64,000 nt of DNA, taken from assembly GCF_055900595.2 (NCBI RefSeq), contig NZ_CM148325.1; one strand, 5' to 3'. This document shows, piece by piece, positions 13,520-16,500 of this stretch. Numbering within the stretch: the first letter of the stretch is position 1; each line of letters opens with the position of its first letter. The position numbers are program-made.

Positions 13520-16500
13520 TAAATAAAACAGGAGGCGAAGGTGCCTCCCGTTTTATTTTGTGCACTCAGTATCTACTGAATGAATACGGTTTCAGACATC
13601 GGCACCATACGAAGTAAAGTGTACTGTAAGCTGATTGCAGGCTAGCGTATCCTGATTAGTAAAAGCACACTAAAGGAATAGCTTGATGCAACTTACCAAC
13701 GAAGAACAAGTACAGATTGCTCGTATAAAAGAAAAAATCCCACGCATTGCCGCACTGGATCCTGAATGTAAGTTATTCGGTTCTGAAGGTTGGAAATATC
13801 AATGGCCGAAGCCTGCCAGCGAGGCGGAAATAGCTTCCTGGGAGAAAAAACATAGCGTCACTTTGCCACGGGAATATCGAATTTTTCTTCGCTATATCGC
13901 TAATGGCGGTCCGGCACATGCCTACGGTCTTGAATCTTTAGGCGGTACAGATATTTATGGCGATATAACAAAAGAAAGCCCTGTACCGCTTTATATGACG
14001 CAGCAGGATGTTGATGTGTTGAATGCTGGCCGTACAGAAGATGATGAAGAATATAGTTTTTTTGACGGCGCATTGACCATTCTCACCCTGGGATGTACTT
14101 ATGATATTTGCCTGGTGGTGACGGGGCAGTATCGCGGAAGGTTAATGCTGACTGATGGTGATGAAGATTATCCGTTTGATTTTATATATGATAAAAATTT
14201 CCTCAACTGGTATGAACGCTGGCTGGACGATTTTATTGCTGGCATGAGTATGAAGGGTTTCGATAGAAGTTTGCCAGGAACGCAAATTCAACTGCGTGAG
14301 TGGTTTTTAACTGAGAAAATCCCGGATTTACGTAGATCCATTTTATTCTCGCTATGCCGTTTTCCACAGATAGAACCCGAAACATTTGCCCTTTGGGAAC
14401 ATGTTTGCCACACAGAGAATGATAAAGAATTGTGTGAAGAGGCATTCATAAGATTACGCCAAAAAAAAGTTTCTTGTGCTGCAGATATTTTTCGACTCTA
14501 TTTTACAATGCCAGATGAATTACGTGATATTGCTATTAAAGATCTCCGTTTTGCCTGTAGAGATAGTGTGGTGAATATTGAGGATTATATTCATTCACTG
14601 TTAATAATAATGCCTGAACTTGACGATGACACTCTATCCTCAGCTGTCTTTGCTATACGAGAAACAGAGTATAATAAATATGATACTTTTCTGCCGCTTC
14701 TCGAACGTATCACTGATGACCGTCAGCAAACATTATTGTGGGCGATGAGTAAGGCGCCTGATTTCAATGAAAGCCGAGGATTCATTGAGTTGGTATTACC
14801 GCTTTTTGCATCATCAAAGATGGAGAATGTAAGGAAGGCTATTTTGTTGCTCATTGAAGTTAAAGATAATCGTATTCCACCATTGGTTGATGAAGCTGCA
14901 ACTCGTTTCCCTGAACTGACCATTTTACGAGAAAACTACTATCTCAGGACGTGGGGACATAAGCCATAAATTAATGGTTCAGAAATGATCTAACGCGGAG
15001 AAAAATATGATCAGGGAACATATTCAGCAAGCGATAAATAATAGGTTAGCCTTTGATGGCCCATTCAATGTTGTTCCTGAACCTGCAAGCACTGCGTTTG
15101 ATAGCCGGATCCCGACATTGAAAAACGGTGTCTGGCAGAAGGCCAGCCCTATGTTGCAGGCGCGTTTTGCACATTGTGGACGTTGGTTAAGCGCTACACA
15201 TGGAAGCTGGCTAAGTATAAGTGACATGGAAACGCTTTGGCAGGAACACATAGAAGATACGTTTCTTGATGAAATCAAAATGAATGCTGTAGCTTCAAGT
15301 GATAATTGGGATAACCATGCCTTGGGACTATTTCGTTCTCATCGCCTGTCACTTTTTGCCGGTAGTGATTACAGTTATGAAATGGTTTTTCTCCTTTGGC
15401 TAGATAGTACCGTTGAGCCAGAGGTCTGGGTTTATGACTGCAATGGGGAATCACGTTATAAAGATCTTAATGATTACCTGAATGCATATATTAATGATGA
15501 CGTAAGCGCCTGTGAGTGCTCCTGGCGAGTAGAATGAATAGCCCCCCTTGCCCCTTTGATCCACAAACCGCACATTACCTCGGCACAGTGCAAATCCACT
15601 ACACCCAAACCGCCTTCAACGCTGCCGTTAAGCATTATACCTGTTACATTAAAAAGCGTTTTAAAGGGTTTAAATGGGGAATCCGAACCGCTGGCTTATT
15701 GGCTATACTGCCCATGATCCCACAATGGTTGAAACCTTCTCATGACTTTAAACTCAACGCAATCAGTACGTTAATTCTTCTATTAATGTTGCCACTCCTC
15801 TTATCAATGTTCCTGTTAATCAGCAGAAGAATTAACGATTTTAAGTCAAAAACAAAGCAAGTTACTTTTACGAAACCCGTGCGTTATGCGTTTTATTTCG
15901 AGGGGATTGTTTTTTATGAATCTCATCAGCAGGGCATACTTCGCTGGGAAGATTTTTATAGCATTGAGTATGAAGAAGATTATTTGTGGCTTTTTCTGCA
16001 TTTACCGAAGAGTTGTCCCAGAGAAGCGACGAAAGCGTTTTGCGATATTTTCATTCCCACCAGTGCGATAAAAGCGCAGCCTGAACTGGATACGTTTTTT
16101 CGTGAAACACGCCACTCGCTGGATTATCTGTTTGTCCCGTTTAATTCTGACAGAAAATAACATATCCCCCGTATCTGGTGAAACGGGGGATTTCGTCGCT
16201 TAACTTATCGGATTACAGTTTTGGACCAGCCGCTACCAGCGCGGCACCCGCAGGGGTGTCGGTGTATTTATCGAAGTTGTCGATAAACAGTTTCGCCAGC
16301 GTTTCAGCTTTTTCCTGCCACTGTTCCGGAGAAGCGTAGGTGTTACGCGGATCGAGGATCTTAGTGTCTACGCCCGGCAGTTCAGTCGGGATCGCTAAAT
16401 TAAACATCGGCAGAGTGAAGGTTTCTGCGTTATCCAGCGAACCGTTGAGGATAGCGTCGATAATGGCGCGGGTATCTTTAATGGAGATACGTTTGCCAGT

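What the first reader, a model, noticed from the sequence alone, without database searches (positions are those of the whole stretch)
13560..16200. AT-rich three-gene insertion between convergent envZ and pck: candidate novel immunity/defence-type module
envZ and pck are separated here by about 2.7 kb carrying three co-directional ORFs (13686-14969, 15007-15537, 15534-16160). Since b-numbers b3403 (pck) and b3404 (envZ) are consecutive in K-12, I infer K-12 has no gene between them. Hand counts on 60-nt samples give about 30-45% GC inside the insert versus about 60-67% in flanking envZ, which points to horizontal acquisition. The genes are tightly packed (38-nt gap, then ATGA overlap), so they look like one operon. 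Two products carry SUKH (Smi1/Knr4)-like signatures, a fold class described for immunity proteins of polymorphic toxin systems, yet no toxin gene, Rhs/CdiA fragment, T6SS gene, integrase or transposase is present. This could be an orphan immunity cassette or an undescribed self-contained system.
Basis: partly seen in the sequence, partly recalled or inferred. Interest (0 to 1): 0.85.

Follow-up and report, generated by a model that had tools for sequence, protein, structure and literature searches.

The report
Orphan toxin-immunity island between envZ and pckA
A rare 2.7-kb foreign insert between envZ and pckA carries two SUKH-type toxin-immunity genes and a membrane protein of unknown function but no toxin, so it is most likely a small "orphan immunity" island against rival bacteria's toxins, which is a known kind of element at a new site.

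Summary
Window 13555-16211 (2,657 nt, GC 0.42 against 0.53-0.57 in the flanks) replaces 43 nt of the K-12 envZ-pckA spacer. It carries three packed co-directional genes and occurs in only 18 of 5,426 complete E. coli genomes.

- g1 (427 aa) is a SUKH-1 domain plus C-terminal HEAT-like repeats.
- g2 (176 aa) has no Pfam match, but its model is a SUKH fold. In Pectobacterium, Serratia, Azovibrio, Burkholderia, Aggregatibacter, Lonsdalea and 31 other E. coli genomes, its homologues lie directly downstream of Rhs proteins or fragments that share one unannotated C-terminal toxin domain. This is the cognate-immunity position. In Bacteroidales they sit in recombinase-associated arrays of small genes.
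- g3 (208 aa) is a YcxB-family protein, with a two-helix membrane hairpin and a PH-like domain. Its function is unknown.

The three genes occur separately elsewhere, so they are not an obligate three-gene system. PADLOC gives one marginal match, to g3. No toxin domain was found in the window, and no similar toxin DNA in the identical reference genome.

Verdict: an orphan interbacterial-immunity island at a recombination hotspot that more often holds a RelE/ParE-NadS pair. It is a new member of a known kind, of moderate to low interest. The role of g3 and the toxin's activity remain open.

The parts
13521..13558 (.). envZ terminator hairpin, shared with K-12-type genomes. It marks the left edge of conserved sequence.
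   Evidence: Inverted repeat I2; terminator-like on both strands; -19.2 kcal/mol, z -4.8. Homology to empty-site genomes ends at 13554-13557.
13555..16211 (+). Inserted island: 2,657 nt, GC 0.417, replacing 43 nt of the K-12 spacer.
   Evidence: blastn boundaries against L002 and L003; composition; present in 18 of 5,426 E. coli genomes.
13673..13677 (+). AAGGA ribosome-binding site 8 nt upstream of the g1 ATG. The 13559-13672 leader has no convincing sigma-70 match.
   Evidence: Sequence read directly. The promoter scan found no + strand site upstream of g1.
13686..14969 (+). g1: 427-aa SMI1/KNR4 (SUKH-1) plus HEAT-like repeat protein, a predicted immunity protein whose toxin partner is unknown.
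   Evidence: ORF; RefSeq WP_032303924.1 'SMI1/KNR4 family protein'; dN/dS 0.16 against E. albertii.
13812..14192 (+). g1 SUKH-1 domain (aa 43-169).
   Evidence: Pfam SMI1_KNR4 2.7e-6 and SUKH_6 3.4e-5. A 54%-identical SUKH-only protein lies in a CdiA/orphan-toxin region of Serratia plasmid pAM01.
14598..14966 (+). g1 C-terminal HEAT-like repeats (aa ~305-427).
   Evidence: The family profile A6 matches alphaRep/HEAT repeat proteins at 7e-18, and E. coli YibA (1oyz) at 0.037. PF13646 HEAT_2 is precomputed in relatives P0063 and P0069-71.
15007..15537 (+). g2: 176-aa SUKH-fold protein with no Pfam family, a member of the cognate-immunity family of an unannotated Rhs C-terminal toxin domain.
15534..16160 (+). 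g3: 208-aa YcxB-family inner-membrane protein. Start overlaps the g2 stop (ATGA). Function unknown.
   Evidence: ORF. All of the top 50 AFDB50 Foldseek hits are annotated YcxB. Pfam YcxB matches 6 of 17 family members at E<=0.1. dN/dS 0.37.
15663..15854 (+). g3 transmembrane helical hairpin (aa ~44-107).
   Evidence: AF2 helices 44-66 and 76-107. Only the second reaches Kyte-Doolittle >1.6, at windows starting aa 71-82. Flanking K/R-rich segments imply both termini are cytoplasmic (inference).
15879..16109 (+). g3 PH-like beta-sandwich with C-terminal helix (aa ~116-192).
16164..16191 (.). GC-rich hairpin between the g3 stop and the pckA stop, probably a terminator for pckA and perhaps for g3. 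It replaces the K-12 spacer sequence.
   Evidence: -18.3 kcal/mol (+ strand) and -19.6 kcal/mol (- strand), z about -3.4, with 0 of 200 shuffles as stable. The consensus scan did not call it a terminator because the T-run is short.

Best explanation
This is a small orphan interbacterial-immunity island, acquired horizontally and fixed in a rare E. coli lineage. It probably arrived by homologous recombination through the envZ and pckA flanks.

- g2 is a cytoplasmic SUKH-fold protein. It is inferred to bind and neutralise one family of Rhs C-terminal toxin domains that rival bacteria deliver through type VI secretion. This toxin family is carried by 31 other E. coli genomes, among others.
- g1 combines a SUKH-1 domain with HEAT-like repeats, which are two recognised immunity-type binding modules. 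It most likely neutralises a different toxin that has not been identified.
- g3 is a YcxB-family membrane protein that stays next to pckA while the upstream cargo changes. Its role is unknown. It could be a membrane-located immunity or adaptor protein, or simply an older resident of the site.

Shown here: the anatomy, rarity, foreign base composition, folds, the toxin adjacency of the g2 family, the separability of the three genes, purifying selection, and the absence of the toxin gene in the window and, at DNA level, in the identical genome.

Inferred: binding and protection, the target of g1, the role of g3, co-transcription, and the route of acquisition.
For: g2 and its toxin:
- In Pectobacterium parmentieri, the g2 homologue (56% identity) is the gene immediately after a 1,423-aa PAAR-Rhs in an hcp-vgrG-DcrB-rhs cluster.
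- tblastn with that Rhs C-terminal domain finds a homologous toxin domain directly upstream of the g2 homologue in L004, L026, L022, L023, L039, L036, L040, L037 and L035.
- The same holds in E. coli EC17GD31, where an orphan Rhs fragment and a g2 paralogue sit in a vgrG/PAAR island.
- In Bacteroides and Parabacteroides, g2 homologues lie in co-directional arrays of small genes that include ankyrin- and LRR-repeat proteins. In two loci (L031, L032) a tyrosine recombinase gene lies two ORFs upstream. This is the rAID architecture.
- Divergent SUKH orphan immunity proteins have been shown experimentally to protect (bioRxiv 10.1101/2025.05.03.651265).

g1:
- Pfam SUKH-1 and HEAT-like repeats.
- A Capnocytophaga relative sits in an array of more than 20 small genes that includes Imm-NTF2.
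- A SUKH-only orthologue lies in a CdiA orphan region on a Serratia plasmid.
- Imm-HEAT is a recognised immunity class (PMC3482391).

Orphan status:
- The toxin C-terminal domain gives no tblastn hit in the window.
- The toxin plus g2-paralogue DNA occurs in 31 of 5,426 genomes. The 15 module carriers listed in that search, including the window's strain NZ_CP098223.1, match it only through g2.

Other support:
- The genes are under purifying selection, with dN/dS of 0.16, 0.36 and 0.37.
- The same site holds other conflict cargo. A RelE/ParE-NadS pair is present in 1,329 of 5,426 genomes, and CdiI_5 genes occupy it in Salmonella.
Against: - No binding or protection was tested.
- g1 relatives were never found directly beside a recognisable toxin in about 55 metagenome loci and 5 genome loci. 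Many distant relatives sit in unrelated contexts, such as helicase, AAA+ ATPase and hutH-pit operons.
- g3 has no link to any toxin, and its family has no known function.
- Orphan status was tested only at blastn sensitivity in the reference genomes, so a divergent toxin gene elsewhere in the chromosome would be missed.
- No promoter was identified upstream of g1, so expression is unproven.
Confidence: 0.7

Rival explanations
1. A self-contained three-gene defence system, for example anti-phage or abortive infection. The SUKH proteins would act as sensors or inhibitors and the YcxB membrane protein as the effector.
For: - Tight operon-like packing with an ATGA overlap.
- The site also hosts a toxin-antitoxin pair.
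- g3 gives a marginal PADLOC match to the Pycsar membrane effector PycTM, E 0.0097.
- Some distant g1-like genes overlap an AAA+ ATPase gene resembling the anti-phage ATPase IteA (1e-28, below the curated cut-off).
- g2 and g3 stay together in three Escherichia variants.
Against: - The genes are separable. g1 occurs alone. g2 occurs behind Rhs toxins or in immunity arrays without g1 or g3. g3 occurs with CdiI_5 or a HEAT-like domain instead.
- There are no significant PADLOC or PHROG hits, and the PycTM match covers the hydrophobic hairpin.
- g1 and g3 give no tblastn match to enteric plasmids beyond a SUKH-only relative of g1 on a Serratia plasmid, and g2 matches only one Sphingomonas plasmid. 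The phage collection was not searched.
Confidence: 0.07
2. A decaying remnant of a former toxin-immunity locus, or neutral hitch-hiking DNA at a recombination hotspot, with no current function.
For: - No toxin is present and no promoter was found.
- g1 is frameshifted in one E. albertii strain, where L018 and L020 have two ORFs in place of one.
- The Salmonella version shows duplication scars and truncated CdiI_5 copies.
- The module is rare, in 18 of 5,426 genomes.
Against: - All three ORFs are intact in the window and annotated as intact CDSs in all 18 E. coli carriers.
- dN/dS against E. albertii orthologues is 0.16-0.37 at dS 0.19-0.35, which indicates purifying selection.
- Ribosome-binding sites are present.
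Confidence: 0.12
3. The proteins have a housekeeping or regulatory role rather than immunity. SUKH proteins can be general protein-binding adaptors (Syd binds SecY; Smi1/Knr4 regulates the cell wall), so g1 and g2 might modulate envelope functions together with the membrane protein g3.
For: - SUKH is a versatile binding scaffold (PMC3113570).
- Many distant g1-like genes lie in metabolic or transport neighbourhoods.
- The island lies next to the envelope-stress regulators ompR-envZ.
Against: - The module is absent from 99.7% of E. coli genomes.
- Its base composition is foreign.
- The g2 family is repeatedly tied to one Rhs toxin domain and to Bacteroidales immunity arrays.
Confidence: 0.08

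Closest known systems
SUKH (Syd/US22/Knr4) immunity proteins of polymorphic toxin systems (Zhang, Iyer & Aravind 2011, PMC3113570; Zhang et al. 2012, PMC3482391)
   Same: g1 matches the Pfam SUKH-1 and SUKH_6 families. g2 has the SUKH core fold, and its family occupies the gene position immediately 3' of Rhs toxin genes. Both are small or modular cytoplasmic proteins of low GC that often occur in tandem with other immunity genes.
   Different: g2 matches no SUKH Pfam family, or any other Pfam family, by sequence. Its partner toxin domain (motif GH[TI][PS]DVGWGG...VNxY[IV]GGxTQA) also has no Pfam, NCBIfam or PDB match beyond the Rhs core. The SUKH+HEAT fusion in g1 is a rare architecture, with 24 clusters in 5.8 billion proteins.
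Acquired interbacterial defence (AID/rAID) orphan-immunity arrays of Bacteroidales (described in bioRxiv 10.1101/2025.05.03.651265)
   Same: Immunity genes are held without their cognate toxins. They diverge 35-66% from the cognate copies, are horizontally acquired, and include SUKH members. g2-family members themselves sit in such Bacteroides and Parabacteroides arrays, in two loci with a tyrosine recombinase gene two ORFs upstream.
   Different: The window has no recombinase and only two or three genes. The island lies at a core-gene intergenic hotspot in Enterobacteriaceae and appears to move by flanking homologous recombination. In E. albertii the envZ 3' end is duplicated between stacked cassettes.
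Orphan Rhs-CT/immunity and CdiA-CT/CdiI modules of Enterobacteria (PMC3150448; PMC3967940)
   Same: The toxin system is the same (Rhs/T6SS). The same g2 family occurs as an orphan Rhs-CT plus immunity pair in Serratia rubidaea, Sphingomonas and 31 E. coli genomes.
   Different: Classical orphan modules keep a toxin-CT fragment and lie downstream of a full rhs or cdiA gene. Here no toxin fragment remains, and the locus is unrelated to any rhs, cdi or T6SS cluster.
YcxB-like family (Pfam PF14317): two transmembrane helices plus a bacterial PH-like domain
   Same: g3 has this architecture and fold. All of the top 50 AFDB50 matches are annotated YcxB.
   Different: Sequence similarity to the Pfam model is marginal (0.57 for g3, best family member 6e-4). 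The g3 subfamily is tiny, with 12 clusters among 1.84 billion representatives. It is tied to envZ-pckA and is fused to a HEAT-like domain in either order in some genomes. No function is known for any YcxB protein in the searched literature.
HEAT-repeat immunity proteins (Imm-HEAT) and E. coli YibA (PDB 1oyz)
   Same: The C-terminal third of g1 is made of HEAT-like repeats. HEAT repeats are a listed immunity class for Rhs-linked toxins such as Ntox34 and Tox-REase-7.
   Different: Similarity to YibA is only marginal (E 0.037). In g1 the repeats are fused to a SUKH domain rather than standing alone.

Membership tests
SUKH superfamily (g1) | Significant sequence match to SUKH family profiles | tested here: met
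   Pfam SMI1_KNR4 i-E 2.7e-6 (aa 43-152) and SUKH_6 3.4e-5 (aa 46-169). PGAP names the protein SMI1/KNR4 family.
SUKH superfamily (g2) | Core fold of four helices and six strands: a beta-hairpin plus a four-stranded meander forming a split sheet (PMC3113570) | tested here: met
Polymorphic-toxin immunity protein (g2) | Gene lies immediately downstream of, and co-directional with, a toxin gene whose C-terminal domain co-varies with it | tested here: met
   This holds for the family: a homologous Rhs C-terminal domain lies directly upstream in at least 10 loci across Gamma-, Beta- and Alphaproteobacteria. It does not hold in the window itself, where the gene is orphan.
Polymorphic-toxin immunity protein (g1) | Gene adjacent to a toxin gene in at least some genomes | tested here: inconclusive
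   No direct adjacency to a recognisable toxin was seen in the loci examined. Supporting context only: polyimmunity-like arrays (L049; L072) and a CdiA orphan region on plasmid pAM01.
Polymorphic-toxin immunity protein (g1, g2) | Physical binding to the toxin and neutralisation of it | not testable with these tools
   Needs co-expression, pull-down or competition experiments.
Orphan immunity gene | The cognate toxin is absent from the same genome | tested here: met
   There is no toxin C-terminal tblastn hit in the 64-kb window. In NZ_CP098223.1 (100% identical over the region) the toxin+immunity DNA query matched only g2. Limitation: this is blastn sensitivity only, so a divergent toxin would be missed.
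rAID (recombinase-associated acquired interbacterial defence) | Array of orphan immunity genes associated with a tyrosine recombinase | tested here: not met
   There is no recombinase or integrase ORF in or next to the insert. Bacteroides and Parabacteroides loci that carry g2 homologues do have one.
YcxB-like family (g3) | Two transmembrane helices followed by the YcxB / bacterial PH-like domain | tested here: met
Known anti-phage defence systems (PADLOC-DB v2) | Match to a defence-system protein model | tested here: not met
   g1 and g2 have no hits. g3 matches only PycTM at E 0.0097, over its hydrophobic hairpin. No PHROG hit is better than E 0.16.
Mobile genetic element (integrative island, transposon, prophage) | Integrase or transposase, flanking direct or inverted repeats, or a tRNA/att site | tested here: not met
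   None was found. The boundaries fall between the envZ terminator and the pckA stop codon, with no target duplication.

The most novel reading that the evidence does not exclude
The envZ-pckA spacer of Enterobacteriaceae may be a recombinase-free counterpart of the Bacteroidales acquired interbacterial defence loci. A YcxB-family membrane protein (g3) would be the constant 3' element, and immunity modules (SUKH, HEAT-like, CdiI_5) would be swapped or fused upstream of it. If g3 is functionally coupled to them, YcxB proteins would gain their first function, for example as a membrane anchor or adaptor for cytoplasmic immunity domains, or as an immunity protein against membrane-targeting effectors. 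In addition, g2 and its partner would define a new SUKH-fold immunity family and Rhs toxin family whose enzymatic activity is unknown.
Probability: 0.2. Interest if true: 0.55.

Novelty: new member of a known kind. Interest (0 to 1): 0.3.

Why it matters
Orphan immunity genes decide who survives contact-dependent warfare in dense communities such as the gut. They are well documented in Bacteroidales but much less so in E. coli.

This locus gives a clean, minimal and testable example. The g2 immunity family has an identified partner toxin that circulates in other E. coli strains (31 of 5,426 genomes). None of the 15 module carriers listed in that search also carries the toxin, which predicts strain-level winners and losers.

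The work also flags three further points:
- an Rhs toxin/immunity pair that current domain databases do not annotate;
- a core-genome hotspot (envZ-pckA) that alternates between a toxin-antitoxin pair and immunity cargo;
- a recurrent association of an uncharacterised YcxB membrane protein with immunity-type domains.

None of this changes the concepts of the field. It extends a known category.

Tried and rejected
Sequence-level searches that found nothing useful:
- NCBIfam, PADLOC and PHROGs scans of the three proteins gave only chance-level matches.
- PDB sequence searches with single sequences, and with profiles of g2 and g3, gave nothing.
- I tried to assign the partner toxin domain to a known toxin family with Pfam, NCBIfam and a PDB profile search. 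Only the Rhs core (DPxGL) region matched. Weak I-CreI matches (E about 0.3) were rejected as unreliable. I noticed an HxxD motif shared with Ntox15, but no search supported a relationship, so I do not claim one.

Searches on the insert itself:
- The promoter scan found no convincing + strand promoter upstream of g1.
- Rfam found no RNA family in the insert.
- The repeat search found no flanking direct or inverted repeats.

Literature and context:
- A search for the envZ-pckA hotspot and for YcxB function found nothing relevant. One query was wasted on 'bph', which is the brown planthopper.
- A metagenome scan for g1 relatives, run to find a partner toxin, returned 288 relatives but no toxin adjacency.
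- A Pfam test of the 152-aa 'HEAT-like' gene that accompanies g3 in other genomes gave only E 0.05 for HEAT_2. Its HEAT assignment is therefore tentative.

Other:
- dN/dS against the more divergent Escherichia sp. MOD1 locus failed because synonymous sites are saturated.
- I considered and rejected prophage, integrative element, transposon and toxin-antitoxin readings, because none of the defining genes or repeats is present.
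Full report
**1. Observation**

- g1 is 13686-14969 (427 aa).
- g2 is 15007-15537 (176 aa).
- g3 is 15534-16160 (208 aa).

GC is 0.41-0.44 in the three genes (GC3 0.35-0.44). 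It is 0.568 in envZ (GC3 0.67), 0.527 in pckA and 0.519 for the window. The 14-16 kb bins are the lowest of all 64 one-kb bins.

**2. Insertion and distribution**

K-12-type and laboratory strains have only a 75-nt envZ-pckA spacer. Homology ends at window 13554, just after the shared envZ terminator hairpin, and resumes at 16211/16212 at the pckA stop. So 2,657 nt replace 43 nt. The insert has no integrase, transposase, flanking repeat or Rfam RNA.

Among 5,426 complete E. coli genomes, the site is occupied as follows.

| State of the envZ-pckA site | Genomes |
|---|---|
| Three-gene module (99-100% identical; human, dog, goat, cattle and pig isolates) | 18 |
| g3-type gene only, fused to a helical domain (strain A30) | 1 |
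| RelE/ParE-NadS toxin-antitoxin pair | 1,329 |

Most of the remaining genomes sampled have an empty site. The spacer is therefore a hotspot with alternative cargo.

In E. albertii the module and the TA pair are stacked. A second copy of the last 155 nt of envZ lies between them. This is what homologous recombination through the envZ flank would produce (inference).

**3. g2**

g2 has no match in Pfam, NCBIfam, PADLOC, PHROG or PDB sequences. Homologues at 46-84% identity occur in Enterobacterales, Beta- and Alphaproteobacteria, Pasteurellaceae, Neisseriaceae and Bacteroidales.

Toxin adjacency:
- In Pectobacterium parmentieri, the homologue is the gene immediately after a 1,423-aa PAAR-Rhs protein in an hcp-vgrG-DcrB-rhs cluster.
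- Using the last 160 aa of that Rhs as a tblastn query, I found a homologous C-terminal domain (51-92% identical) directly upstream of the g2 homologue in nine further loci.
  - In three of them it ends a long Rhs ORF: P. zantedeschiae and Azovibrio (full length) and Burkholderia (cut by the contig end).
  - In two it lies on fragments cut by the contig end (Lonsdalea, Aggregatibacter).
  - In four it lies on orphan Rhs-CT fragments (Serratia rubidaea, two Sphingomonas, E. coli EC17GD31).
- This is the defining genomic signature of a cognate immunity protein.

Array contexts: in Bacteroides and Parabacteroides, the homologues sit in co-directional arrays of small genes that include ankyrin- and LRR-repeat proteins. 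In two of these loci (L031, L032) a tyrosine recombinase/integron-integrase-like gene lies two ORFs upstream. This is the recombinase-associated AID architecture. Divergent SUKH orphan immunity proteins from such arrays have been shown experimentally to protect.

The partner toxin: this domain is about 125 aa, with the invariant motif GH[TI][PS]DVGWGG...GP..PL...VNxY[IV]GGxTQA. Beyond the Rhs core it matches nothing in Pfam, NCBIfam or the PDB. Its activity is unknown.

**4. Orphan status**

The toxin domain gives no tblastn hit in the window. A blastn search with the E. coli toxin-CT plus immunity DNA finds the pair in 31 genomes. The 15 module carriers listed in that search, including NZ_CP098223.1, match only through g2, and none carries the pair. 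This test would miss a strongly divergent toxin gene.

**5. g1**

- Residues 43-169 match SUKH-1 and SUKH_6.
- A profile of the family matches alphaRep/HEAT repeat proteins over residues ~305-428 at E 7e-18, and E. coli YibA marginally. Relatives carry PF13646 HEAT_2.
- Close relatives are rare, with 24 clusters. They occur as single genes between housekeeping genes in Klebsiella aerogenes and in other E. coli (between the yoaA-type helicase gene and a RidA-family gene).
- In Superficieibacter a relative lies next to a small unrelated gene cluster.

Evidence for an immunity role:
- A Capnocytophaga relative sits in an array of more than 20 small co-directional genes that includes Imm-NTF2.
- A SUKH-only protein, 54% identical to the N-terminal half of g1, lies in a CdiA pretoxin/orphan toxin-immunity region of Serratia plasmid pAM01.

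Evidence that weakens it: a metagenome scan found 288 relatives. In the roughly 55 loci examined, none was directly beside a recognisable toxin. Distant members sit in assorted contexts, including a conserved operon with an AAA+ ATPase.

So the immunity role of g1 is a family-level inference and is weaker than for g2. HEAT repeats are a recognised immunity class.

**6. g3**

The g3 subfamily is very small, with 12 representative clusters in 1.84 billion proteins. In enterics it is tied to envZ-pckA, with varying partners:

| Genome | Arrangement at envZ-pckA |
|---|---|
| Salmonella | A 152-aa helical (weakly HEAT-like) gene, then CdiI_5 genes, then g3 |
| Escherichia sp. E4742 and E. coli A30 | The same helical domain fused to the N-terminus of g3 |
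| Another enteric genome (L045) | The same helical domain fused to the C-terminus of g3 |
| Escherichia sp. MOD1-EC7003 | Helical gene, g2-like, g3-like |

A distant homologue in Superficieibacter is a lone gene after secF. No function for YcxB proteins was found in the literature. g3 is therefore the constant element next to pckA, and the upstream cargo varies.

**7. System or collection?**

Each gene occurs without the others elsewhere, and g2 has a complete explanation on its own. The three are therefore better read as a collection of immunity-type modules than as one machine. PADLOC gives only a marginal PycTM match over the hydrophobic hairpin of g3.

All three genes are under purifying selection against their E. 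albertii orthologues: dN/dS 0.16, 0.36 and 0.37 at dS 0.19-0.35. This argues against a dead remnant.

Expression is unproven. Ribosome-binding sites are present, but no promoter was recognised. A stable hairpin follows g3.

**8. Verdict**

This is a new member of a known kind.

The modestly new elements are:
- an unannotated SUKH-fold immunity family and Rhs toxin family;
- the envZ-pckA hotspot;
- the recurrent YcxB association.

Interest is about 0.3.

Noticed in passing
window 13523-16212 (envZ-pckA spacer); L003: The same spacer holds a RelE/ParE-NadS toxin-antitoxin pair in 1,329 of 5,426 complete E. coli genomes. Most of the remaining genomes sampled have an empty site. It is therefore a multi-allelic hotspot for conflict-type cargo.
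   Followed up: partly
L019 7946-8101 and L020 8473-8626 (E. albertii): A second copy of the last ~155 nt of envZ plus its terminator lies between g3 and nadS-relE. The two alternative cassettes are thus stacked, each with its own envZ flank. This suggests acquisition by homologous recombination. In L019 a fimbrial usher gene and further ORFs lie upstream of g1. In L018 and L020, g1 is split into two ORFs.
   Followed up: partly
L016 5348-7618 (Salmonella enterica envZ-pckA): The Salmonella version reads envZ, 152-aa helical gene, CdiI_5 (170 aa), 91-aa ORF, truncated CdiI_5 (80 aa), g3 homologue, pckA. A ~400-nt internal duplication (73-83% identity) reaches into the start of g3. The 152-aa gene ends with the first codons of the fused HEAT-g3 form.
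   Followed up: partly
L014 7001-8041, L044 2566-3606, L045 7001-8098: The 140-aa helical (weakly HEAT-like, Pfam E 0.05) domain is fused to the YcxB-type protein in both orders: N-terminal in 346-aa proteins and C-terminal in a 365-aa protein. All of these lie at envZ-pckA. Recurrent fusion hints at a functional link.
   Followed up: partly
L004 7600-7978; alignment A7: An Rhs C-terminal toxin domain of ~125 aa has the invariant motif GH[TI][PS]DVGWGG...VNxY[IV]GGxTQA. It matches nothing in Pfam, NCBIfam or PDB sequences. It is conserved from Pectobacterium to Sphingomonas and always paired with a g2-family gene.
   Followed up: partly
L043 (E. coli EC17GD31, 2.93 Mb): Thirty-one E. coli genomes carry a vgrG-DUF2169-PAAR island. 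Downstream of it lie an orphan Rhs fragment ending in this toxin domain plus a g2 paralogue (66% identical to g2), another Rhs-CT/Imm11 pair, and IS elements. The 15 envZ-pckA module carriers listed in that search are not among these 31.
   Followed up: yes
L086 1742-9063, L088, L095 (metagenome contigs): Distant g1-like SUKH+HEAT genes (about 26% identity) overlap by 43 nt the end of an AAA+ ATPase gene. That ATPase resembles the anti-phage ATPase IteA (1e-28, below the curated cut-off). In L086 and L095 a 1,283-aa protein with no family match precedes it. The arrangement recurs in three loci and may be a different, defence-like use of the architecture.
   Followed up: no
L130 (Serratia marcescens plasmid pAM01, 58-73 kb): A mobilizable plasmid carries a CdiA-type orphan region. 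It has DUF637 pretoxin fragments, an Ntox17-Imm31 pair, a deaminase domain and DUF596 genes, and it is broken up by a group II intron and IS fragments. It contains a SUKH-only orthologue of the N-terminal half of g1.
   Followed up: partly
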